Part shown: positions 1 to 30,377 of the stretch, piece after piece
Layout: each line of letters begins with the position of its first letter
Numbering within the stretch: the first letter of the stretch is position 1
IMG/VR virus record: IMGVR_UViG_2565956721_000001
Source: a virus
Lineage: Duplodnaviria > Heunggongvirae > Uroviricota > Caudoviricetes
Strand: one strand, 5' to 3'
Length of the DNA stretch: 30,377 nt
Notes under the pieces: generated by a model
Told to the model about the DNA's origin: nothing
Database searches by the model: none
The model's input: the letters and a program-made list of their open reading frames with translations, nothing else
Program-made: the position numbers and the translations under genes

Positions 1-1009
1 AGTTCGTTCTTTGTCCCTCAATAAGCAGGCCATCACACTCAAATCGCGGCTCATTAATTTCCGCCGTTTTCAGTTCGCCAGATTTGTTGATATATGTTGC
101 CGTTGATGCGCGACTGAAATTAACCTGTTTATCACTGGCGACCTGAACCACATCGTCACCAATAGCTATTTTTTTATAGCCCGGAGAAAAACCCGCAATC
201 ATATCCAGTGAATCGTTAAACGGTATCCACACATCAGGCAGCGGCGGCACTATATTCGCATAGGGCTCTGCAGTCACTTCCGCTGCGACTTCTGCGCGGT
301 CTGCCGCCTTTTCAGCCCGTGTCGCTGCCGACAGAGCCTCATCCTTTTTCTGCCCGGCCTTTGTTGCGTCTGCTGCGGCCTCCCGCGCTTTTGTGGTGGC
401 GACTCCGGCATTTTCAGCGGCTGACTCTGCATTACGGCGGGAAGCCTCTTCACTGTCTGCGGAGGCTTCTTCTGACGCACGGGCATTTGTCTCTGAACGT
501 TCTGCCGCTGTTGCTGCGTTTTGTGCGGCTGTTTTTGAAGAAGCTGCCGCTTTCGCGCTGTTACCTGCATTCGTCTCTGATGTTTTCGCCGCATTCCTGG
601 ACGATGCCGCTGCTGTTTCTGATTTCTTTGCTGCCGCTGCGCTCTGAGAGGCGGCTTCAGCGTTGCGTGCCACCTCTTCCACCATCTTTTCAAAACGATA
701 CAGTGCCTCCGGACGAACATCATCTTCTGTTGCAGCGCCCAGAAAATCATTCAATGTCCCCGGCTTAGAATCCTCATACACGGTGATGGCCCCGGCATGT
801 GAAGGCGGAAAACCTTCAACCAGCAGGATAACGCTGTACTGGCCATACTCGACATCCATGCTGTAACGTCCGGCTTCATCCGGATTTTCTGAGGCCACCG
901 TGTTCACCACAACCGTGGTGCTGTTACGTTTTGCTTTGAGCTGAATGGTGCAGTTCTGTATCGGTTTTCCTGCACCGTCTTTCAGCACGCCTGAAATCTG
1001 TACTGCCAT
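1..1009 (-). CDS. stf: side tail fibre protein Stf, N-terminal part (gene runs off the left edge of the window)
   Basis: ATG at complement 1007-1009 preceded by a GGAG Shine-Dalgarno; hand translation MAVQISGVLKDGAGKPIQNCTIQLKAKRNSTTVVVNTVASENPDEAGRYSMDVEYGQYSVIL... matches my recollection of the lambda Stf N-terminus; frame stays open to position 1. Not in the ORF track because no stop lies in the window. Confidence 0.8.
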   Translation of the reverse strand, partial: MAVQISGVLKDGAGKPIQNCTIQLKAKRNSTTVVVNTVASENPDEAGRYSMDVEYGQYSVILLVEGFPPSHAGAITVYEDSKPGTLNDFLGAATEDDVRPEALYRFEKMVEEVARNAEAASQSAAAAKKSETAAASSRNAAKTSETNAGNSAKAAASSKTAAQNAATAAERSETNARASEEASADSEEASRRNAESAAENAGVATTKAREAAADATKAGQKKDEALSAATRAEKAADRAEVAAEVTAEPYANIVPPLPDVWIPFNDSLDMIAGFSPGYKKIAIGDDVVQVASDKQVNFSRASTATYINKSGELKTAEINEPRFECDGLLIEGQRTN

Positions 1010-1020
1010 ATTCACTCCAC

Positions 1021-1046
1021 AAATAAAAAAGGCGCCATTTCTGGCG
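1021..1046 (-). terminator. rho-independent terminator between J and stf
   Basis: Minus strand reads GGCGCC-AGAAAT-GGCGCC followed by TTTTTTATTT, 20 nt downstream of the J stop. Confidence 0.6.
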
Positions 1047-1067
1047 CCCGTATCTGGGTTATAAAAT

Positions 1068-6956: not shown

Positions 6957-9514
6957 CGTCCACCTCCGGAGAACAGACCACCATCGCGCATCTGTGCCTG
7001 GATTTCATCACGGGCACCCTTGCGGGCCATGTCATACACCGCCTTCATCATCTGTGGACCTGGCAGACCATTCGTACCGTCGTTCTGAATCACCACGTTG
7101 TTGTTCTGCTCAAACCTGATACCCTCTGAACGCCGCATTTGCGCCGGACTTCCGGTGCCACCGACATAACCGCCGGTGGCATAGCCGCGCATCAGCCGGT
7201 AGAGATTTCCCACGCCAATCCGGCTGGTTGCCTCCTTCGTGAAGACAAATTCACCACGGTGAACAATCCCCGCTGGCTCATATTTGCCGCCGGTTCCCGT
7301 AAATCCTCCGGTTGCAAAATGGAGTTTCGCCGCAGCGGCCTGAATGGCTGTACCGCCTGACGCGGATGCGCCGCCACCAACAGCCCCGCCAATAGCGCTG
7401 CCGATACTCCCGACAATCCCCACCATTGCCTGCTTAAGCAGAATTTCTGTCATCATGGACAGCACGGAACGGGTGAAGCTGCGCCAGTTCTGTTCACTGC
7501 CGGTCAGCATCGCCGCCATATTCTGCGCAATACCATCAAAGGTCTGCGTGGCTGCACTTTTTACCTGCGACATACTGTCCGTGGCGCTCTCTTCCCACTC
7601 ACTCCAGCCGGACTTCAGGCCTGCCATCCAGTTCCCGCGAAGCTGGTCTTCAGCCGCCCAGGTCTTTTTCTGCTCTGACATGACGTTATTCAGCGCCAGC
7701 GGATTATCGCCATACTGTTCCTTCAGGCGCTGTTCCGTGGCTTCCCGTTCTGCCTGCCGGTCAGTCAGCCCCCGGCTTTTCGCATCAATGGCGGCCCGTT
7801 TTGCCCGTTGCTGCTGTGCGAATTTATCCGCCTGCTGCGCCAGCGCGTTCAGGCGCTCCTGATACGTAACCTTGTCGCCAAGCGCAGCCAGCTGGCGTTT
7901 GTACTCCAGCGTCTCATCTTTATGCGCCAGCAGGGATTTCTCCTGTGCAGACAGCTGGCGACGTTGCGCCGCCTCCTCCAGTACCGCGAACTGACTCTCC
8001 GCCTTCCACAAATCCCGGCGCTGCTGGCTGATTTTCTCATTTGCTCCGGCATGCTTCTCCAGCGTCCGGAGTTCTGCCTGAAGCGTCAGCAGAGCAGCAT
8101 GAGCACTGTCTTCCTGACGATCGCCCGCAGACACCTTCACGCCGGACTGTTTCGGCTTTTTCAGCGTCGCTTCATAATCCTTTTTCGCCGCCGCCATCAG
8201 CGTGTTGTAATCCGCCTGCAGGATTTTCCCGTCTTTCAGTGCCTTGTTCAGTTCTTCCTGACGGGCGGTATATTTCTCCAGCGGCGTCTGCAGCCGTTCG
8301 TAAGCCTTCTGCGCCTCTTCGGTATATTTCAGCCGTGACGCTTCGGTATCGCTCTGCTGCTGCGCATTTTTGTCCTGTTGAGTCTGCTGCTCAGCCTTCT
8401 TTCGGGCGGCTTCAAGCGCAAGACGGGCCTTTTCACGATCATCCCAGTAACGCGCCCGCGCTTCATCGTTAACAAAATAATCATCCTTGCGCAGATTCCA
8501 GATGTCGTCCGCTTTCTTAAACGCAGCCTCTGCCTTAATCAGCATCTCCTGAGCGGTATCAGGACGACCAATATCCAGCACCGCATCCCACATGGATTTG
8601 AATGCCCGTGCTGTCCTGTCTGCCCAGGTTTCCAGCGTGCCCATGTTCTCTTTCAGGCGTCGGGTCTGGTCATCAAACCCTTTCGTTGCGGCCTCGTTCG
8701 CCGCCTGCAATGCCCCGGATTCATCGCCGGAACGCTGCAACTGAGCAACATACGCAATCTGCTCCGCCGTTACGTTATGGAACTGGCGCGCCATCGCCGT
8801 CAGCCCCGACGTCGGGTCAGTGGTCAGCTTCCCGAAGGCTTCAGCGACCTTGTCCACCTCCACGCCGGATGCAGAGGAGAAACGCGCCACACTCTGGCTG
8901 ATGGATGCAATCTGAGCCTCACCGCTTACTCCCGCCTTAACCAGTGCGCTGAGTGACTCGCTGGTCTGGTTAAACGTCAGCCCTGCCGCCTGCCCGGCTC
9001 TGGACAGGACCAGCATACGATCTGCCGTCAGACCCGACTGATTGCCGGAAAGGACCAGCGTTTTGTTGAAATCGGACAGGGTTGAGTTACCCTGATACCA
9101 GGCATACGCCAGCGCACCGGTCGCCACCGCCAGCGAGGTGGCCCCGACCATCGGCAGGGTGATCGCACCGGCAAGCCCCCGGAACATGGGGATCATCCCG
9201 CCGAAGGAGTCCTTAACCTGACCACCCTGTTGCAGCAGGATCAGCCACGGGCTTTGCCCGCCTGCAAGCTGCGTGGCCACGTCGGTGAACTGTGCAGGCA
9301 GCATACGCATGGCGGCTTTATACTGCCCGACGGAAATCCCCGCTTTCTGTGCAGCCAGCGCCTGTCGGCTCAGCGACTGTTCAACGACTGCCGCTGTTTT
9401 TTTCGCATCACTTTCCGTACCGGAAAAATGACGCCTGACTCTGGCCATCTGCTCGTCAAATCTGGCCGCATCCAGACTTAAATCAACGACCAGATCGCCT
9501 ACCGGTTCAGCCAT
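6953..9514 (-). CDS. H: tail tape measure protein H
   Basis: 853-aa ORF, same length as lambda gpH; Ala/Gln-rich coiled-coil sequence. Confidence 0.95.
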   Translation of the reverse strand: MAEPVGDLVVDLSLDAARFDEQMARVRRHFSGTESDAKKTAAVVEQSLSRQALAAQKAGISVGQYKAAMRMLPAQFTDVATQLAGGQSPWLILLQQGGQVKDSFGGMIPMFRGLAGAITLPMVGATSLAVATGALAYAWYQGNSTLSDFNKTLVLSGNQSGLTADRMLVLSRAGQAAGLTFNQTSESLSALVKAGVSGEAQIASISQSVARFSSASGVEVDKVAEAFGKLTTDPTSGLTAMARQFHNVTAEQIAYVAQLQRSGDESGALQAANEAATKGFDDQTRRLKENMGTLETWADRTARAFKSMWDAVLDIGRPDTAQEMLIKAEAAFKKADDIWNLRKDDYFVNDEARARYWDDREKARLALEAARKKAEQQTQQDKNAQQQSDTEASRLKYTEEAQKAYERLQTPLEKYTARQEELNKALKDGKILQADYNTLMAAAKKDYEATLKKPKQSGVKVSAGDRQEDSAHAALLTLQAELRTLEKHAGANEKISQQRRDLWKAESQFAVLEEAAQRRQLSAQEKSLLAHKDETLEYKRQLAALGDKVTYQERLNALAQQADKFAQQQRAKRAAIDAKSRGLTDRQAEREATEQRLKEQYGDNPLALNNVMSEQKKTWAAEDQLRGNWMAGLKSGWSEWEESATDSMSQVKSAATQTFDGIAQNMAAMLTGSEQNWRSFTRSVLSMMTEILLKQAMVGIVGSIGSAIGGAVGGGASASGGTAIQAAAAKLHFATGGFTGTGGKYEPAGIVHRGEFVFTKEATSRIGVGNLYRLMRGYATGGYVGGTGSPAQMRRSEGIRFEQNNNVVIQNDGTNGLPGPQMMKAVYDMARKGARDEIQAQMRDGGLFSGGGR

Positions 9515-9941
9515 ACCGGACTCCTCCTGCGATCCCTTCTGATACTGTCATCAGCATTACGTCATCCTCCGTCATGCCCGCCATATCCGGGGAAGCGGGG
9601 ATAACTTCATTTCCGTCCGGGTCAAAGCGGACGCCTCCGGTAAGCCCTGCCGCTTTCTGCATCAGCACATCATCTTCAGGCTCTTCGTCATCCTCACGCC
9701 GGTTCAGCAAACTGAAATCCAGCGGATGCATATCCGGATCGCTGAAAAACAGGCTGAGCACAGTGTACGTCAGCCCGGAAAAGTGCATATCCAGCAGAAC
9801 ATCATGAAAATAATGGGTACTGTAAAAGCGGTGCCAGTCGGCATACTCCGTGGATGACATCCCGGCAAGCATGGCGCGCCAGTCAGGTCGCCCCATCTCT
9901 CGCGCCAGTTTCAGGGCAAAACTCAGCTCACCGTCGAACAC
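9507..9941 (-). CDS. T: tail assembly chaperone T frame (expressed as G-T fusion by -1 frameshift)
   Basis: 144-aa ORF in the -1 frame relative to G, beginning at the slippery site; arrangement as in lambda G/G-T. Confidence 0.85.
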   Translation of the reverse strand: MFDGELSFALKLAREMGRPDWRAMLAGMSSTEYADWHRFYSTHYFHDVLLDMHFSGLTYTVLSLFFSDPDMHPLDFSLLNRREDDEEPEDDVLMQKAAGLTGGVRFDPDGNEVIPASPDMAGMTEDDVMLMTVSEGIAGGVRYG

Positions 9942-10345
9942 TTTCCCGCAGAAACAGGCTCTGCAGGCCCGGAGTCCTCTGCCTGGTCAGGGGCATCATT
10001 CACCACAAACCCATACATACCGGACAGCCGGTACACCACGTTTTCAGCATGAGAAATTGCCTCCGCGGGCCAGGTGGTAAGCACTTCCTGCTCAATCTGT
10101 TTAACGGCTTCATTCATGGAAGGCTGCTTTGTCTTCTGCGGATGGTTATGCCACAGGGACATCGCCACCACAAAAGCACCGGTTCTGATGGCGTCTTCCA
10201 CAGTAACCTGCCGGTTGCTGTCTGACTCCGCCTGTTCTGCCTGCTGTTTCATCAGGGCGAGATGCTCAATACGCTGCAGGGCTGACAGTTCAGAAAGCGT
10301 GACGGTCACGCCGTTATGTTCAAATGATTCGGTTTTCAGGAACAT
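9923..10345 (-). CDS. G: tail assembly chaperone G
   Basis: 140-aa ORF between V and T, ending just after the slippery site. Confidence 0.9.
   Translation of the reverse strand: MFLKTESFEHNGVTVTLSELSALQRIEHLALMKQQAEQAESDSNRQVTVEDAIRTGAFVVAMSLWHNHPQKTKQPSMNEAVKQIEQEVLTTWPAEAISHAENVVYRLSGMYGFVVNDAPDQAEDSGPAEPVSAGKCSTVS
9941..9947 (-). promoter_or_regulatory. programmed -1 ribosomal frameshift slippery heptamer G GGA AAG
   Basis: Minus strand reads GCG GGA AAG TGT at the end of G; this is the canonical lambda G-T slippery sequence, 18 nt before the G stop. Confidence 0.8.
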
Positions 10346-10360
10346 CGCTGACTCTCCGGA

Positions 10361-11101
10361 TTAACTGTCGGTGACAGTGATTTCTGCAACCGCAGCAAGT
10401 TCACCATTACCGGATACAACCGGAATGTTGACCTTGCCTGCAGCAACGCCGTTCACGGTGATGGTCATACCACTGACCGACACGGTGGCTTTTGTTTTAT
10501 CCGCTGACACCGCACGGAAGCTCTTGTCAGTTGCGCCCTCCGGCTGGAAGGCCACGGTCAGCGTGGTGCTCTGCCCTTTCACCACCGAGGAGCTGGCAGG
10601 CGTCACGGTCATACCGGTTGCCGCCGTCACCGTACTGCGATCTTCTGCCATTGACGGACGGCCCACATTGGTGACCTTCACCGTACGGGTGATCACTTCC
10701 TTCGCCGTCACCGCCTTACCGATACTGCTGACCCAGCCACGGAACACATCGACCGTGCCGTTCGGGAAGCGGATTTTATAGGCACGGGTATCACCTTCAT
10801 TAAACCACGCCAGCAGCGCCTGCTGCCCCTGCTCTCCGGGCATCCACGCCAGCGTGAAGCTGGTATCTCCGGCGGATTTCTGCCCCTGCCCGGTCGCGGT
10901 CCAGTCCGCATCTTCATCATCGAGATAACTGTCGTCATAGGACTCAGCGGTCAGTTCGCCGGGCGTCAGGTCTTTAATTTTTGCCAGACGCGACCAGTCA
11001 TTGTCTGAAAGCGGGTTTGCATAAGGGTCGCCGCTCCCGTTATAAACCCACAGTGTGGTCCCGGCCCCTTTCACCGGTGCCAGAGGATTTGGTGTTGGCA
11101 T
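10361..11101 (-). CDS. V: major tail protein V
   Basis: 246 aa from [18 protein letters not shown] (the track ORF extends 10 codons further upstream); C-terminal Ig-like domain; matches recalled lambda gpV. Confidence 0.9.
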
Positions 11102-11108
11102 ATCGTCC

Positions 11109-11504
11109 TCACATTTCATAGGTAATGACATAAGTCAGATCGGCTGAACTCCACAGGCCCGCATCATCGTCGCGCCGGTAGTCATAGCCACTGGCCACCA
11201 TACTGGTGATCAAATCTGACAGTGCCGGGATATCGCTCATCACCGGATAAATCCGGGACTCCATCCACGAATCCAGCTCTGAATCCGGCACCTGAGCAGG
11301 CAGGAAAACTTCAATATGCAGCTCCGCCTGCCAGGTATCGCTGTCCAGCTCTTCGCCCGTGTATTCAGCGCCGGTGAGATAAACGGCAATTGCCGGAAAA
11401 TCTTCCTCATCAAAAACAGCAGGGCGACCATCAAAAAGCGTCGCCCCGGTGTCATGCTTCTCCAGTGCATCCAGTACGGCTGCACGGAGTTCAGTATGTT
11501 TCAT
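11109..11504 (-). CDS. U: tail terminator protein U
   Basis: 131-aa ORF, same length as lambda gpU. Confidence 0.9.
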
Positions 11505-12079
11505 CGCTTTATTACCATTCTCAGTTGATGCTGCAGCGCATAGCCCAGCTCTTTCGGAAGACGCTCACGCCGTATCCGCTCAATATTCTGTTTAAACGCC
11601 GTGGTCAGCGGCACCGCCATCGGGATTTTCACCACATCAATGGGGTAACGGTTTTTCCCGGCCACACGCTGCATGACATGCCACCGGCCATTTTTCAGTT
11701 GCTGAATAAACGCGCCGGGAATACGACGGTTTCCCACCACAAGCACGCTGCCGCCACCTTTCAGGGATGAACGCTGCCCCTTTTTACGACGCCTGCGTCG
11801 GGACAGGACAACCCGCGCGTTACCCAGCCTGATTACGGGCAAATCCCCCCGGTTAACTTTGATTCTGGCCTGCGGATTTTTGACCGTGGCCCTTTTCAGC
11901 CTGGCCCTTTCCTTTACCAGTTTCCGGCGTACCTTTGTCTCACGGGCAACCAGTGACGCCGACTGCGATATCGCGGATGAAGCAACGCGGTTAATGGCCA
12001 TTGCGGCGGCACCAGGCACTGCCGTTTTGCTGATACGGCTGAGGTTTTCAACGGCCTGCTCAAGACCTTTTATGGCCAT
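11501..12079 (-). CDS. Z: tail completion protein Z
   Basis: 192 aa from MAIKGLEQAVENLSRI (the track ORF extends 22 codons upstream); matches recalled lambda gpZ. Confidence 0.9.
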   Translation of the reverse strand: MAIKGLEQAVENLSRISKTAVPGAAAMAINRVASSAISQSASLVARETKVRRKLVKERARLKRATVKNPQARIKVNRGDLPVIRLGNARVVLSRRRRRKKGQRSSLKGGGSVLVVGNRRIPGAFIQQLKNGRWHVMQRVAGKNRYPIDVVKIPMAVPLTTAFKQNIERIRRERLPKELGYALQHQLRMVIKR

Positions 12080-12090
12080 ACATCCCCCTT

Positions 12091-12444
12091 TCAGCGGCGA
12101 CGGCTGGCGGCAGGTGGTTGCCCCCGGTTGAGCCAGAGATAACAACTCCCTCCGTCATCCGGAGAAACACGGTCCACCCAGAACATCTCGCCGTTAATGG
12201 TCAGCGTGTCACCACGCCGTACAGCACAAACCGTATCCGTAAGCACAAATAATGACGGGTTACTTCCTTCAATACGGATCCCACTACTGGCAAAACCCAG
12301 CGACTCCGGATCGTCAAAAACGCCATGAACCTCGCCGCCACGCTGTGCACCGGAGGTGAACTGCGCACTGATGCCCATCACTTCAACAATCGTACTGTCC
12401 ACCCCGGCAAGGGCGGCATCAAAGGCATTCTGAAAATCACGCAT
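12091..12444 (-). CDS. FII: head-tail joining protein FII
   Basis: 117 aa from MRDFQNAFDAALAG; C-terminus VDRVSPDDGGSCYLWL resembles lambda FII. Confidence 0.85.
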   Translation of the reverse strand: MRDFQNAFDAALAGVDSTIVEVMGISAQFTSGAQRGGEVHGVFDDPESLGFASSGIRIEGSNPSLFVLTDTVCAVRRGDTLTINGEMFWVDRVSPDDGGSCYLWLNRGQPPAASRRR

Positions 12445-21813: not shown

Positions 21814-22107
21814 ATGAAAAAAATGTTGTTTTCTGCCGCTCTGGCAATGCTTATTACAGGATGTGCTCAACAGACGTTTACTGTTGGAAACAAACCTACA
21901 GCAGTAACACCAAAGGAAACCATCACCCATCATTTCTTCGTTTCGGGAATTGGGCAGAAGAAAACTGTCGATGCAGCAAAAATTTGTGGTGGTGCAGAAA
22001 ATGTTGTTAAAACAGAAACCCAGCAAACATTCGTAAATGGATTGCTCGGTTTTATTACTTTAGGCATTTATACTCCGCTGGAAGCGCGTGTGTATTGCTC
22101 ACAATAA
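21814..22107 (+). CDS. bor: Bor lipoprotein (serum resistance; Iss family)
   Basis: 97 aa MKKMLFSAALAMLITGCAQQTFTV...EARVYCSQ, near identical to recalled lambda Bor; opposite strand to the late genes as in lambda. Confidence 0.9.
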   Translation: MKKMLFSAALAMLITGCAQQTFTVGNKPTAVTPKETITHHFFVSGIGQKKTVDAAKICGGAENVVKTETQQTFVNGLLGFITLGIYTPLEARVYCSQ

Positions 22108-23472: not shown

Positions 23473-23897
23473 AGCTGTGTGACGAAGTAACCACTCTTAA
23501 CAGCATAACCAATTTTTTACGTACGTAAACTACTAAATGATATTTGTGAGAATGCCACCGAGTGTTCAAAACACCACCACAAATGCATAAGAAAACTTCA
23601 ACAAATAACCAGTTAATAATTTCCGATGTTATTTTTAGTTTGTTTAAATTAAGCTAAAGAATTATAGAGCACTTATAAATAAGTGCCATTAATATAAATT
23701 AGCTAATAGATTTATTTTTGTTCAGACAAGAGCCATGAATAGGATTAGATAGAAAAGGTTCAGATAAAAATAGAGATCTACTTCACAAATTAAATGAGAA
23801 ACTAAAACTTACATCTTGAAATAATCACATTGATTAGATGAATATTTATCGCGCAGTGACATCATTTTTTAATAATAGTTCAAAAAAAGGGCGTACA

Positions 23898-24980
23898 ATG
23901 AAAAAATTAACAGTGGCAATTTCTGCTGTAGCTGCATCAGTACTGATGGCGATGTCTGCTCAGGCAGCTGAAATTTATAATAAAGACAGTAACAAGCTGG
24001 ATCTATACGGGAAAGTTAATGCCAAGCACTACTTCTCCTCTAATGATGCAGATGATGGTGATACTACTTATGCCCGTCTTGGCTTCAAAGGTGAAACCCA
24101 AATCAACGATCAACTGACTGGTTTCGGTCAGTGGGAATATGAATTCAAAGGCAACCGTGCTGAATCTCAAGGTTCTTCCAAAGACAAAACCCGTCTTGCA
24201 TTTGCAGGCCTGAAATTTGGTGATTACGGCTCAATCGATTACGGCCGTAACTACGGTGTAGCATACGACATCGGTGCGTGGACTGACGTTCTGCCAGAAT
24301 TCGGTGGTGATACCTGGACCCAAACAGATGTGTTCATGACTGGTCGCACTACTGGTGTTGCAACTTATCGTAACAACGACTTCTTTGGTCTGGTCGATGG
24401 CCTGAACTTTGCTGCTCAGTATCAGGGTAAAAATGACCGCACTGACGTAACTGAAGCCAATGGTGATGGTTTCGGTTTCTCCACTACTTATGAGTATGAA
24501 GGATTCGGCGTGGGTGCAACCTATGCTAAATCAGATCGCACTGACGGTCAGGTCGCCTATGGTAAGAGCAAATTCAATGCCTCCGGCAAAAATGCGGAAG
24601 TATGGGCTGCAGGCCTGAAATATGATGCGAACAATATCTATCTGGCTACCACATATTCTGAAACTCAGAATATGACCGTTTTTGGTAATAACCATATTGC
24701 AAACAAAGCACAAAACTTTGAAGCAGTAGCACAATATCAGTTTGACTTCGGTCTGCGTCCATCTGTTGCTTACCTTCAGTCAAAAGGTAAAGACCTTGGT
24801 GTTCATGGTGACCGAGACTTAGTCAAGTATGTCGATGTCGGTGCTACTTACTACTTTAATAAAAACATGTCCACTTTTGTTGATTACAAAATCAACTTAA
24901 TTGACGATAGTAAGTTTACCAAAACAGCTGGTATTGATACCGACGACATCGTCGCTGTAGGTCTGGTTTATCAGTTCTAA
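23898..24980 (+). CDS. nmpC: outer-membrane general porin (NmpC/OmpD family)
   Basis: 360 aa from [23 protein letters not shown] (signal peptide) with AEIYNKD...LVYQF (C-terminal Phe), typical OmpC/OmpF-family beta-barrel; start preceded by AAGGG; AT-rich upstream region. Confidence 0.85.
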
Positions 24981-27898: not shown

Positions 27899-28189
27899 TC
27901 ATCTTTTAACTCCATATACCGCCAATATCCGTTTCATCGTGGCACTCTGGCGACACTCCTTAAAAATCAGGTTCGTGCTCATCTTTCCTTCCCGTTCTTC
28001 CTTGGTAGCAAACCGGTAATACACCGTTCGCCAGACCTTACCTTCGATAACCAGAAGACCTGCCCGTGCCATTTTAGCCGCGGCCTGATTTATGCTGGTT
28101 ACTGTTGCGCCTGTTAGCGCGGCAACGTCCGGCGCACAGAAGCTATTATGCGTCCCCAGGTAATGAATAATTGCCTCTTTGCCCGTCAT
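27899..28189 (-). CDS. ren: Ren protein
   Basis: 96 aa MTGKEAIIHYLGTHNSFCAPDVAALTGATVTSINQAAAKMARAG..., matches recalled lambda Ren; ATG overlaps the P stop. Confidence 0.9.
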   Translation of the reverse strand: MTGKEAIIHYLGTHNSFCAPDVAALTGATVTSINQAAAKMARAGLLVIEGKVWRTVYYRFATKEEREGKMSTNLIFKECRQSATMKRILAVYGVKR

Positions 28190-28887
28190 ACACTTGCTCC
28201 TTTCAGTCCTAACTTAGCTTTAATTTCTGCGATCTTCGCCAGCGCCTGAACACGATTTAGAGGTCTGCCGCCCATGACAGGAAGTTGTTTTACTGGTTCA
28301 GGTATCGTCTCACCACGGTTAATTCGCGCTGTCATACAGGTCAGTTCATCGGCAGCCTTGCGTCGTAATTCCGCGTCAGTCAGCGCATTGGCCCGCATGT
28401 TCTGGTACAGGTTGGTAACCAGCCAGTAGTGCGCGTTCGATTTCCACGGATAAGACTCTGCATCCGGATACAGGCCTCGCTTCCGGCAATACTCGTAAAC
28501 CATATCAACCAGCTCGCTGACGTTTGGCAGTCCGGCGATAACGGATGCTTCTTCCCGGCACCATGCAACAAACTGCCCGGGTGATGGCAGAAATGGTCGA
28601 TTCTGCCGACGGGCTACGCGCATTCCTGCGTTAACCTGTTCCATTGTGGTGATCCCGTTTTCCCGGAAAGCCAGAACCCACTGGCGGCGGATTTCGTTCA
28701 GTTCGTTCTGGTCACGGTTAGCCAGACTCGCCGGGAAAGTTGCCAGTAACTGGCTGAACACACCGTTGATGATCTGCGCTACCTGCTGTACCTGCGGCTT
28801 TTCGTCGTACTGTTCCGGCATGTTGTTGGCGATCCGACGCATCTGCTCACGGTCAAAATTAACCATCTGTGCGGCGATGTTTTTCAT
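28186..28887 (-). CDS. P: replication protein P (DnaB helicase loader)
   Basis: 233 aa MKNIAAQMVNFDREQMRRIANNMPEQYDEKPQVQQVAQIINGVF..., near identical to recalled lambda P. Confidence 0.95.
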   Translation of the reverse strand: MKNIAAQMVNFDREQMRRIANNMPEQYDEKPQVQQVAQIINGVFSQLLATFPASLANRDQNELNEIRRQWVLAFRENGITTMEQVNAGMRVARRQNRPFLPSPGQFVAWCREEASVIAGLPNVSELVDMVYEYCRKRGLYPDAESYPWKSNAHYWLVTNLYQNMRANALTDAELRRKAADELTCMTARINRGETIPEPVKQLPVMGGRPLNRVQALAKIAEIKAKLGLKGASV

Positions 28888-29783
28888 AAATCCACCCCGT
28901 AAATCCAGTCAGTGTTTGTCAGGTCGAGTTTTGGTTTGCAGGCTGTCACACCTGCCTGTTGCTTGTTACGGTTGATTTCGAGCTGGGTCCACTTGTCGCG
29001 GAGTTTGGCCGGGCTCAGCACGTTACCGGACCAGAAGTTGTCCTGGCATGCCCAGCGGAACAGTACACACATGTCGCGATGGTTACGTCCGTCACGTTCA
29101 CGCATCAGGCGGATATCGTTAGCCCACCCTGCAAAATTCGGTTTTCTGGCTGATGGCGCGATGGTCTTCACCATGTCAAACATCCATTCTGCGGCGGTCA
29201 GGTCTTCTGCTGTCCCCCACTTGCTGCCGCTCTGAATTGCAGCATCCGGTTTCACCACAGAAAGGTCGTTTTCTGGCTGGTCAGAGGATTCGCCAGAATT
29301 CTCTGACGAATAATCTTTTCTTTTTTCTTTTGTAATAGTGTCTTTTGTGTCCCCCTGTTTTGAGGGATAGCAATCCCCCAATTTGAGGGATGTTTTATCC
29401 CTCGTTTTAGGGGATTTTCCCTCGTTTTGAGGGATACACCATTCTGAGATGTTTTTATTTGGTCCAAACATGCCGCCTTGCTGCTTGATAATATTCATTC
29501 TGACGAGTTCTAACTTGGCTTCATTGCACCGTTTGACGGGTAACTTTGTAATCTCGCTAAGTTGAGAATCGGTGATTCTGTCCATTGGTTTATTCCATCC
29601 ATAGGTTTTACGCAGAATGGCAAGCAGCACTTTAAACTGTCGCTTGGTCAGATCTGCGCCTGAATAAGCCTCAAGCAGCATATTTGATAGTCTGGCGTAA
29701 CCATCATCGAGATCTGCCACATTACGCTCCTGTTTGGCAAAGTTACCTCTGCAGAAGTTGAGTATTTTTGCTGTATTTGTCAT
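28884..29783 (-). CDS. O: replication initiator protein O
   Basis: 299 aa MTNTAKILNFCRGNFAKQERNVADLDDGYARLSNMLLEAYSG..., near identical to recalled lambda O. Confidence 0.95.
   Translation of the reverse strand: MTNTAKILNFCRGNFAKQERNVADLDDGYARLSNMLLEAYSGADLTKRQFKVLLAILRKTYGWNKPMDRITDSQLSEITKLPVKRCNEAKLELVRMNIIKQQGGMFGPNKNISEWCIPQNEGKSPKTRDKTSLKLGDCYPSKQGDTKDTITKEKRKDYSSENSGESSDQPENDLSVVKPDAAIQSGSKWGTAEDLTAAEWMFDMVKTIAPSARKPNFAGWANDIRLMRERDGRNHRDMCVLFRWACQDNFWSGNVLSPAKLRDKWTQLEINRNKQQAGVTACKPKLDLTNTDWIYGVDL
29295..29440 (-). other. origin of replication ori-lambda (four iterons plus AT-rich region) inside O
   Basis: Minus strand carries four ~19-bp iterons of the form ATCCCTCAAAACGAGGGA / AATCCCCTAAAACGAGGGAT / ATCCCTCAAATTGGGGGAT / ATCCCTCAAAACAGGGGGA, followed by the A/T-rich stretch AAAAGAAAAAAGAAAAGATTATTCGTCAGAG. 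Coordinates approximate. Confidence 0.85.
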
Positions 29784-29815
29784 AATGACTCCTGTGGATT
29801 GATCCAGTAATGACC

Positions 29816-30112
29816 TCAGAATTCCATCTGGATTTGTTCAGAACGCTCGGTTGCCGCCGGGCGTTTTTTATTGGTGAGTCCATCAAGCGCATACTTAAAA
29901 GCCCTGCTAATCGGACTGATGTCTGATGCCATTCCGAAAGCACACAAGACCGAAGCAATAAATCTCCAGTCCGTTCTGCTTATCTTCGATTCATGACAGC
30001 CAATCATCTTTGCCAGACCGCGCTGGGTAATAGCTGACAGATTGATAAGTAAATCTGTTTCTGCGCGATCAACGTCACGCTGTGATAGTTTGCTGTAACT
30101 TGTTCTTTCCAT
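29816..30112 (-). CDS. cII: CII-like transcriptional activator (chimeric: divergent N-terminus, lambda-like C-terminus)
   Basis: 98 aa MERTSYSKLSQRDVDRAETDLLINLSAITQRGLAKMIGCHESKISR...; the last ~21 aa LTNKKRPAATERSEQIQMEF match recalled lambda CII exactly; HTH-like centre differs. Confidence 0.8.
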   Translation of the reverse strand: MERTSYSKLSQRDVDRAETDLLINLSAITQRGLAKMIGCHESKISRTDWRFIASVLCAFGMASDISPISRAFKYALDGLTNKKRPAATERSEQIQMEF

Positions 30113-30148
30113 TTCTTAAGATTTCCAATAGTGAATAGTTAGTTGAAA

Positions 30149-30172
30149 GGTATGCGTGGAAACGCATATGGC
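30149..30172 (-). terminator. hairpin in the tR1 position upstream of cII
   Basis: Minus strand TATGCGT-TTCC-ACGCATA followed by CCTTTTCAA; lies between the IS end and the cII start. Confidence 0.4.
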
Positions 30173-30377
30173 TGAACCGCCCCGGGTTTCCTGGAGAGTG
30201 TTTTATCTGTGAACTCAGGCTGCCAGATCATCGTTTCCGATGGAAGCATAATAAGCTTTTTCTGCTTCTGCCGGAGGAGTATGGCCCAGCCTTTCCAGCA
30301 ATCGTCGATTGTTATACCAGTCCACCCACGTGAGTGTGGCCAGTTCCACTTCTGCACGGTTTTTCCAGCTCTTACGG
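30173..30377 (-). mobile_element. right end of an IS3-family insertion sequence (IS629/IS1203-like); element continues beyond the window
   Basis: Plus strand 30173..30186 is TGAACCGCCCCGGG, recalled as the terminal inverted repeat of IS629-group elements, reading inward; a transposase C-terminus follows on the minus strand. Confidence 0.7.
30215..30377 (-). CDS. IS3-family transposase OrfB (rve/DDE integrase core), C-terminal fragment
   Basis: Hand translation of the minus strand gives ...RKSWKNRAEVELATLTWVDWYNNRRLLERLGHTPPAEAEKAYYASIGNDDLAA then stop; YNxRRxxxxLG..P motif typical of rve transposase C-termini. Different frame from track ORF 30139..30357. Confidence 0.7.
   Translation of the reverse strand, partial: RKSWKNRAEVELATLTWVDWYNNRRLLERLGHTPPAEAEKAYYASIGNDDLAA

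What the first reader, a model, noticed from the sequence alone, without database searches (positions are those of the whole stretch)
30113..30377. IS629-like element inserted 60 bp upstream of cII, where cro/nutR should be
An IS3-family terminal inverted repeat (TGAACCGCCCCGGG at 30173) and a transposase OrfB C-terminus occupy the position where a lambdoid phage has cro, nutR boxA/boxB and the PR-proximal region. Only a tR1-like hairpin and the cII ribosome-binding region remain between the IS end and cII. The early-right operon (cII, O, P, ren, nin, Q) is therefore physically separated from PR and probably from nutR. That predicts a prophage that cannot replicate or express Q on induction (a cryptic, domesticated prophage), unless the IS supplies an outward-reading promoter.
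Basis: partly seen in the sequence, partly recalled or inferred. Interest (0 to 1): 0.6.

Follow-up and report, generated by a model that had tools for sequence, protein, structure and literature searches.

The report
IS629 replaced a prophage's control region
A copy of the common E. coli jumping gene IS629 sits 60 bases in front of the cII gene of a lambda-like prophage and, in the source genome scaffold, has replaced the 3.4 kb that held the repressor and early promoters; this is an ordinary, already understood way for a prophage to be disabled.

Summary
Window 30173-30377 is the right end of IS629. It is 205/205 identical to an annotated IS629, with the terminal inverted repeat and the last 53 codons of OrfB. 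It abuts phage DNA cleanly at 30172|30173, 60 bp upstream of cII.

The window ends at a gap inside the IS. The source is E. coli HVH 178, scaffold KI538782.1, which matches the window at 10163/10163 bases. Across about 965 N the scaffold shows the IS629 left end joined to a truncated sieB.

Compared with intact relatives (UTI89-type prophage, viable phage PhiR57_1), 3,397 bp are missing: the sieB 3' end, N, nutL, PL, two genes, cI, PR, cro and nutR. The flanking triplets differ (ACT vs GCC), so this is an IS-associated deletion, not a simple insertion.

What remains is the lambda-tR1-homologous hairpin and the PRE-like/cII leader. All 39 genes from cII to J are intact.

The consequence, a non-inducible "grounded" prophage, is inferred and not tested. 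IS629 deletions in prophages are well documented, so interest is low.

The parts
30173..30377 (-). Right end of IS629 (last 205 of 1310 bp). The window stops here because the contig ends at a scaffold gap inside the IS.
   Evidence: 100% identical to annotated IS629. L019 shows a run of N immediately beyond the window's last base.
30173..30197 (.). IS629 right terminal inverted repeat (IRR), 25 bp. It matches the left repeat at 23 of 25 positions; the outer 14 bp are TGAACCGCCCCGGG.
   Evidence: IRL/IRR comparison on the reference IS629; sequence read.
30215..30376 (-). C-terminal 53 codons plus stop of IS629 transposase OrfB, read in the same direction as cII-O-P.
   Evidence: Translation; weak rve_3/rve_2 Pfam hits; annotated 'IS629 transposase OrfB' in LC567824/LC567828.
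30172..30173 (.). IS/phage junction. The phage side begins GCC (read toward cII), corresponding to L003 9941.
   Evidence: The match to uninterrupted phages ends at 30172. The flank at the other IS end is ACT, so there is no duplication.
30113..30172 (-). Remaining 60 bp of the cro-cII spacer: the cII leader with its ribosome-binding region.
   Evidence: Identical to the intact relative L003 9941-10000.
30151..30168 (-). Perfect 7-bp hairpin TATGCGT-ttcc-ACGCATA. It is homologous in position and sequence to the lambda hairpin GTATGCA-tttatt-TGCATAC in the tR1 region. The upstream rut/nutR part is gone.
   Evidence: Alignment with lambda. The hairpin forms in both the MFE and centroid folds.
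30090..30122 (+). PRE-like promoter: TTGC-N6-TTGT over the first cII codons, then 13 nt, then TAAGAT. The layout is the same as lambda PRE. It now points into the IS, antisense to orfB.
   Evidence: Sequence read compared with lambda cII 5' end. Assignment by analogy with lambda; not tested.
29816..30112 (-). cII, intact (98 aa).
   Evidence: Pfam Phage_CII E=7e-34; 100% identical to cII of viable phage PhiR57_1.
25172..29783 (-). Rest of the early-right operon: O, P, ren, ninB, dam, ninE, ninX, rusA, ylcG, Q. All genes are full length but now lack PR, N and nutR.
   Evidence: tblastn of PhiR57_1 proteins: full-length matches, no stops or gaps; annotation.

Best explanation
The window is one contig of the draft genome of the human E. 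coli isolate HVH 178. It holds the right two-thirds of a lambda-like prophage integrated beside icd.

A single IS629 copy now joins codon 108 of sieB to a point 60 bp upstream of cII. It replaces the 3,397 bp that normally carry the sieB 3' end, N with nutL and PL, two accessory genes, cI, PRM/PR, cro and nutR.

The two flanks carry different triplets. The structure therefore arose in one of two ways: recombination between two like-oriented IS629 copies, or a transposase/IEE-type deletion running out from one inserted copy.

Inferred consequences:
- The prophage has no repressor to sense SOS.
- It has no early promoters and no N/nut antitermination, so cII-O-P-nin-Q and the Q-dependent late genes have no regulated transcription.
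- It is grounded, and it has also lost immunity and SieB exclusion.

Only weak read-through from the sieB' promoter or the IS629 transposase promoter could enter cII. sieB', the IS ORFs and cII all read the same way.

Every other gene is still intact, so the event is recent. The prophage could be rescued by recombination with an incoming lambdoid phage.
For: Shown directly:
- IS629 identity and the exact junction.
- Source scaffold L019 is identical to the window over 10,163 bases, including a T at window 22759 that none of the nine close relatives compared there (L002-L006, L008, L010) carry.
- L019 reads sieB' (108 aa, stop TGA supplied by the IS tip) | IS629 IRL plus orfA start (218 bp, 2 mismatches to the reference) | 965 N | window sequence. 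A complete IS629 needs 887 bp in the gap, close to the 965 estimated.
- The left flank matches intact relative L003 up to 6543 and the right flank from 9941, so L003 6544-9940 is missing.
- The annotated content of that segment in viable phage PhiR57_1 is the SieB C-terminus, N, two hypothetical genes, cI and Cro.
- Candidate nutR (boxA, boxB) lies in the missing part, and nutL shows the same boxB with a compensating stem change.
- Flanks are ACT vs GCC, whereas annotated simple insertions have a 3-bp duplication (TAA; TTA and CTT).
- All 39 genes from cII to J are full length compared with PhiR57_1.
- No promoter-like site reads from the IRR toward cII.

Background: IS629 sits mostly in prophages and causes deletions (PMC3271280). 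IEE-dependent deletions adjacent to the IS range from a few nt to >40 kb (PMC9943667).

Parallel cases in complete E. coli genomes: sieB'-IS-cII' (L014) and gam'-IS-cro' (L013), both without duplications.
Against: - The middle 887 bp of the IS are not sequenced (run of N).
- The join between the sieB' contig and the window contig rests on the assembler's read-pair scaffolding, which I could not inspect.
- I could not search the rest of the HVH 178 genome for a displaced N-cI-cro segment, or for another prophage that might supply N, Q or repressor in trans.
- There are no expression or induction data.
- sieB', the IS ORFs and cII are co-directional, and no convincing terminator was found in the IS sense strand. 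Some read-through into cII-O-P therefore cannot be excluded.
Confidence: 0.8

Rival explanations
1. Simple IS629 insertion. cro, nutR, PR, cI and N lie intact just beyond the IS. RNA polymerase modified by N at nutR reads through the 1.3-kb element, so the prophage stays inducible. This would resemble classical lambda IS insertions, whose polarity N suppresses.
For: In intact relatives the junction point lies 25 bp downstream of the boxB-like hairpin. A simple insertion would therefore leave nutR upstream of the IS. The IS ORFs are co-directional with PR transcription. A simple insertion of a related element in cro, with TTA duplication, exists in other E. coli genomes (L001).
Against: The source scaffold places sieB', not cro, at the other IS end. 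The flanks are ACT vs GCC with no 3-bp duplication. The truncated SieB' protein is a called gene in this strain.
Confidence: 0.05
2. Two IS629 copies, one in sieB and one upstream of cII, flank an intact N-cI-cro segment (a composite-transposon-like arrangement). The scaffolder skipped the 3.4-kb middle contig, so nothing is really deleted.
For: Each junction would then be half of an ordinary insertion, which would also explain the unlike flanks. Short-read assemblies cannot resolve repeated IS copies. This is the natural precursor of the recombination route to the deletion.
Against: The estimated gap is 965 bp, close to the 887 bp one IS needs and far from the about 5.6 kb that two copies plus the segment would need. 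Two IS insertions would still separate PR/nutR from cII by an IS.
Confidence: 0.12
3. The IS end is a short relic or an assembly chimera, not part of a complete element.
For: Only 205 bp are visible in the window, and the interior is a gap in the scaffold.
Against: The visible ends are 205/205 and 216/218 identical to a functional-length IS629. Both terminal repeats and the orfA start are present. The gap size fits a full copy. The junction falls exactly at the IS tip and exactly at a base of the phage sequence, which a repeat-induced misassembly would not produce.
Confidence: 0.03

Closest known systems
IS629 (IS3 family; e.g. the annotated copy in LC567828.1, and the copies of E. coli O157:H7)
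   Same: The right 205 bp are identical. The left 218 bp in the scaffold are 99% identical. The terminal repeats are TGAACCGCCCCGGG...; orfA comes before orfB; total length is compatible with 1310 bp.
   Different: There is no 3-bp target duplication around this copy (ACT vs GCC). The interior, including the frameshift site, is unsequenced in this assembly.
IS629-associated and IEE-promoted genomic deletions in enterohaemorrhagic E. coli (Ooka 2009 and Kusumoto 2011, as cited in PMC9943667; Rump 2011, PMC3271280)
   Same: The deletion starts exactly at an IS629 end. It lies inside a prophage, and its size (3.4 kb) falls within the reported range of a few nt to >40 kb.
   Different: The host is an extra-intestinal human isolate (HVH 178) carrying a UTI89-type prophage, not an O157 strain. 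Whether it carries iee is unknown. The IS is retained rather than excised.
sieB'-IS3-family-cII' junctions in about 20 complete E. coli genomes of one hit class; only E2865 (NZ_AP018808) was inspected (L014)
   Same: The architecture is the same: truncated sieB, then an IS reading toward cII, then cII-O-P, with N-cI-cro missing and no duplication.
   Different: The junction bases differ: sieB is cut after about 69 codons and the IS removes about the first 10 codons of cII. The IS is only 95.6% identical to IS629. It is an independent event.
Lambda polar IS insertions in the early-right (cII / 'y') region, whose polarity is suppressed by N (classical lambda genetics; from my own knowledge, not checked here)
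   Same: An IS sits between PR and the replication genes of a lambdoid phage.
   Different: In those mutants PR, cro, nutR and N are present, so N restores expression. Here they are deleted, so that rescue is not available.
Phage lambda nutR-tR1-cII leader (NC_001416 38249-38360)
   Same: The retained hairpin, the spacing to the cII ATG and the PRE-like TTGC-N6-TTGY / -10 layout all align with lambda.
   Different: The stretch corresponding to lambda's rutA, boxA, boxB and rutB is absent from the window and replaced by the IS629 end.

Membership tests
IS629 (IS3 family insertion sequence) | Nucleotide identity to the reference element well above the isoform level | tested here: met
   205/205 at the right end (window) and 216/218 at the left end (scaffold L019), against the 1310-bp IS629 annotated in LC567828.1.
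IS629 (IS3 family insertion sequence) | Imperfect terminal inverted repeats ending 5'-TG...CA-3' | tested here: met
   IRR is in the window at 30173-30197. IRL is in L019 at 8818-8842. They match at 23 of 25 positions.
IS629 (IS3 family insertion sequence) | orfA and orfB in consecutive frames with a programmed -1 frameshift; DDE (rve) catalytic domain in OrfB | not testable with these tools
   Only the orfA start (L019 8873 onward) and the last 53 OrfB codons are sequenced. The frameshift site and DDE core lie in the 965-N gap. The OrfB tail gives sub-threshold rve_3/rve_2 hits. The reference copy has both ORFs.
IS629 (IS3 family insertion sequence) | 3-bp direct target-site duplication flanking a simple insertion | tested here: not met
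   The flanks are ACT (IRL side) and GCC (IRR side). This does not argue against the element being IS629. It shows the copy is bounded by a deletion or recombination event.
Lambdoid early-right operon (PR-cro-nutR-tR1-cII-O-P-nin-Q) | cII, O, P, ren, nin genes and Q in lambda order | tested here: met
   Pfam families of relatives, PhiR57_1 annotation, and full-length matches in the window.
Lambdoid early-right operon (PR-cro-nutR-tR1-cII-O-P-nin-Q) | PR/OR, cro and nutR (boxA, boxB) upstream of cII | tested here: not met
   They are present in the intact relatives L003 and PhiR57_1. They are absent from the window and from the source scaffold between sieB' and cII.
Defective (cryptic, non-inducible) prophage | Loss of the genes or sites needed for induction (repressor/early promoters/antiterminator) | tested here: met
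   The 3,397-bp segment with N, cI, cro, PL and PR is missing in scaffold L019. This depends on the scaffold join.
Defective (cryptic, non-inducible) prophage | Failure to produce phage or late transcripts on SOS induction | not testable with these tools
   This needs mitomycin C induction or RNA-seq of strain HVH 178.

The most novel reading that the evidence does not exclude
Removal of the whole N-cI-cro immunity cassette between sieB (or genes further left) and the cII leader by IS629-family elements may be a recurrent, selected route of prophage domestication. Only deletions that take out PL, cI and PR together are survivable, which would explain why independent lineages converge on sieB'-IS-cII junctions. 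In such prophages the co-directional sieB' and IS promoters might then provide low constitutive cII/O/P expression.
Probability: 0.15. Interest if true: 0.4.

Novelty: already known. Interest (0 to 1): 0.15.

Why it matters
For annotation, this prophage in E. coli HVH 178 looks complete, because 39 of 39 genes from cII to J are intact. It should nevertheless be scored as non-inducible, and it has lost immunity and SieB exclusion. More generally, it shows that a contig ending in an IS can hide a deletion, and that the missing target-site duplication is the clue. It adds nothing new about IS629 or lambdoid regulation.

Tried and rejected
1. My first working idea was a simple insertion downstream of nutR, read through by N-modified polymerase. 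I rejected it once the source scaffold showed sieB' at the other IS end and the flanks proved unlike.

2. Exact-junction searches found nothing in GTDB representative genomes, IMG/VR or JGI metagenomes. No single-piece match exists in 5,426 complete E. coli genomes, either for the right junction or the left junction.

3. I looked up the cII protein to find the source. It is far too common (24,861 blocks), and the look-up returned only uninterrupted relatives. Those were useful as empty-site references.

4. I looked for a private amino-acid change near the junction to use as a look-up key. The only private SNP (window 22759) is synonymous.

5. What worked was looking up the 53-residue OrfB fragment that starts at the window edge.

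The exact-sequence cluster look-up then gave the strain name.

7. Promoter and terminator scans of the junction, the IS and the sieB' region gave nothing above the shuffled expectation that reads into cII.

8. Folding the 161-nt junction region was not significant overall (z = -0.93), although the hairpin forms.

9. Literature searches for the strain accession and for PhiR57_1 found nothing.

Full report
**What is at the coordinates**

The genes at the right end of the window read on the minus strand: cII 29816-30112, O 28884-29783, P 28186-28887 and ren 27899-28189. cII hits Pfam Phage_CII at E=7e-34.

From 30173 to the last base, 30377, the plus strand reads TGAACCGCCCCGGGTTTCCTGGAGA.... The minus strand encodes the last 53 residues of a transposase...ELATLTWVDWYNNRRLLERLGHTPPAEAEKAYYASIGNDDLAA*, with its stop at 30215-30217.

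These 205 bases are 100% identical to elements annotated "IS3 family IS629 / IS629 transposase OrfB" in phage records. They also equal the last 205 bases of the 1310-bp IS629 annotated in LC567828.1, which carries a 3-bp target duplication, TAA.

The two terminal repeats of that reference agree at 23 of their outer 25 positions. The transposase reads in the same direction as cII-O-P.

**The junction is exact**

Uninterrupted phages (ev207, ev017, PhiR57_1, PhiR63_2) match window 29700-30172 at 100%, and the match stops at 30172. Against ten prophage loci that encode the identical cII protein, the alignment starts at locus position 9941.

The uninterrupted cro-cII spacer is the normal state. 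It occurs in 1,037 of 5,426 complete E. coli genomes.

**What the spacer normally holds**

In intact relative L003 the cro stop is at 9859 and the cII ATG at 10001 (141-bp spacer). The spacer contains a boxA-like CGCTCTTT (9871-9878), a small hairpin, and a boxB-like TCGCTGAAAAGCGA (9902-9915). The junction point follows at 9940|9941, and then the perfect hairpin TATGCGT-ttcc-ACGCATA.

Upstream of N the same phage has GCTCTTTAAACAA, a small hairpin and TGGCTGAAAAGCCA. This is the same boxB with a compensating C/G exchange in the stem, which supports calling these sites nutL and nutR.

Aligned with lambda (annotation, alignment), the boxB-like element falls on lambda boxB. The retained hairpin falls on the lambda hairpin GTATGCA-tttatt-TGCATAC between nutR/rutB and cII. 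The leader down to the ATG is also conserved.

The hairpin forms in the predicted fold, although the region as a whole is not unusually stable.

**What lies beyond the window**

At first I considered a simple insertion that left nutR upstream of the IS. In that case N-modified polymerase would be expected to read through, as in classical lambda IS mutants (my own knowledge).

The exact junction was absent from complete E. coli genomes, GTDB representatives, IMG/VR and JGI metagenomes. The left end of the window sits in a tail-fibre gene repeated among prophages. This suggested that the window is a whole short-read contig.

Looking up the 53-residue OrfB fragment that begins at the window edge found scaffold KI538782.1 of assembly GCA_000495055.1 (L019). 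After a run of 965 N, this scaffold begins with exactly the window's last bases. It is identical to the window over all 10,163 comparable bases. That includes a T at window 22759 that none of the nine close relatives compared there carry.

The strain is Escherichia coli HVH 178 (4-3189163).

**The other side of the gap**

Before the N run, L019 shows 218 bp of the IS629 left end: TGAACCGCCCCGGGAATCCTGGAGACTAAACTTCC..., with the orfA ATG at 8873. This stretch has 2 mismatches to the reference.

It is preceded directly by sieB, cut after codon 108. The stop codon TGA is supplied by the first three bases of the IS. That truncated SieB occurs on only two contigs in the 15-billion-protein collection.

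The left flank matches intact relative L003 up to 6543 at 99.985%, and L003 continues ...AACT|CTTGGAG.... Relative to intact relatives, L003 6544-9940 (3,397 bp) is therefore missing.

In the annotated, viable phage PhiR57_1 that segment holds the SieB C-terminus, antiterminator N, two hypothetical genes, cI and Cro. It also holds PL/nutL and PR/nutR.

A complete IS629 needs 887 bp in the gap, and the scaffold estimates 965. The flanking triplets are ACT and GCC. Annotated or inspected simple insertions show TAA, TTA and CTT duplications. This copy is therefore bounded by a deletion or recombination event.

**How it arose and what it does**

Two routes fit the structure:
- homologous recombination between two like-oriented IS629 copies, one in sieB and one upstream of cII;
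- a transposase-dependent deletion running out from one copy.

The second kind is documented for IS629, especially with the IS-excision enhancer, with sizes from a few nucleotides to more than 40 kb (PMC9943667). IS629 is also known to lie mostly in prophages (62%) and to cause deletions (PMC3271280). I cannot tell the two routes apart from this assembly.

The functional reading is inference from lambda biology. Without cI there is no SOS-responsive switch. Without PL, PR, N and the nut sites there is no regulated transcription of cII-O-P-nin-Q, and so no Q-dependent late transcription.

No promoter-like site reads out of the right repeat toward cII. No convincing terminator lies on the IS sense strand. 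The sieB' region has only a chance-level promoter match.

sieB', orfA/orfB and cII are all co-directional, so weak read-through is possible but unproven.

All 39 genes from cII to J are full length with no stops or gaps against PhiR57_1, and the DNA is 99.8% identical over 24,973 bases. The lesion therefore looks recent, and the prophage could be rescued by recombination.

**Comparable cases**

In complete E. coli genomes, 31 records have an IS629-family element next to cII in this orientation, at four other sites. The classes come from the hit spans; I inspected one representative of each.
- L001: a simple insertion in cro with TTA duplication, leaving cI intact.
- L012: a junction inside boxA, with unrelated phage DNA beyond.
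- L013: a gam'-IS-cro' deletion.
- L014: a sieB'-IS-cII' deletion, in a class of about 20 records represented by E2865. That IS is only 95.6% identical to IS629.

The query itself selects this orientation, so no orientation bias can be claimed. The repeated loss of the whole immunity cassette is what one would expect if deletions removing cI but leaving PL or PR are lethal. That is a hypothesis, not a result.

**Verdict**

One correction applies: the IS marks a 3.4-kb deletion rather than a plain insertion.

The main uncertainty is that the join across the IS rests on scaffolding with an unsequenced interior. I give about 0.8 to the single-IS deletion and about 0.12 to two IS copies flanking an intact segment.

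The element, the phage family and the type of event are all known, so the finding is ordinary.

Noticed in passing
window 29758-29786 (+) and 29840-29867 (+): A promoter-like site (TTGAGT-17-CATAAT with an upstream TG) lies in the cII-O gap. It is followed about 55 nt later by a strong terminator-like hairpin with a T run, antisense to the 3' end of cII. The layout matches lambda's oop RNA (Po/to).
   Followed up: no
window 30090-30122 (+): A PRE-like arrangement (TTGC-N6-TTGT over the first cII codons, 13 nt, TAAGAT) has the same spacing as lambda PRE. It would now transcribe into IS629, antisense to orfB, and its normal target (cI) is gone.
   Followed up: partly
L003 9871-9915 and L003 about 7190-7235 (minus strand): These are the candidate nutR and nutL of this phage family. 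Each has a boxA-like (C)GCTCTTT, an extra small hairpin in a longer spacer than in lambda, and a boxB-like xGCTGAAAAGCx. The boxB has a GAAA loop and a compensating C/G change between the two sites.
   Followed up: partly
L001, L012, L013, L014 (E. coli Z1323CEC0013, UTAK-1, Z1323HEC0399, E2865): IS629-family elements abut the cII side of the early-right region at four other positions in complete genomes. Three of the four lack a target duplication and have lost cro/cI. One of them, a class of about 20 records of which only E2865 was inspected, is another sieB'-IS-cII' junction.
   Followed up: partly
window 1-1067: The window begins inside a prophage tail-fibre N-terminal-domain gene that is repeated up to 13 times per E. 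coli genome. Together with the IS at the other end, this indicates the window is a complete short-read contig bounded by repeats.
   Followed up: partly
window 23838-24980 (+): An OmpD/Lc-type porin gene (380 aa) sits between Q and the holin on the opposite strand, and Bor lies at 21814-22107. These are lysogenic-conversion genes, presumably with their own promoters (not checked here), so they could stay expressed after the prophage is grounded.
   Followed up: no
window 29400-29440: Repeated CCCTCGTTTT(A/G)(G/A)GGGA motifs lie inside the O gene, at the position of lambda-type ori iterons.
   Followed up: no
L010 (GCA_000461055.1) 1499-2808 and 10917-12357: A sister prophage with the identical cII carries two other IS629 copies. 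One is a simple insertion with CTT duplication near DUF1382. The other is a rearranged copy inside the O gene. IS629 is therefore active in this prophage family outside EHEC.
   Followed up: no
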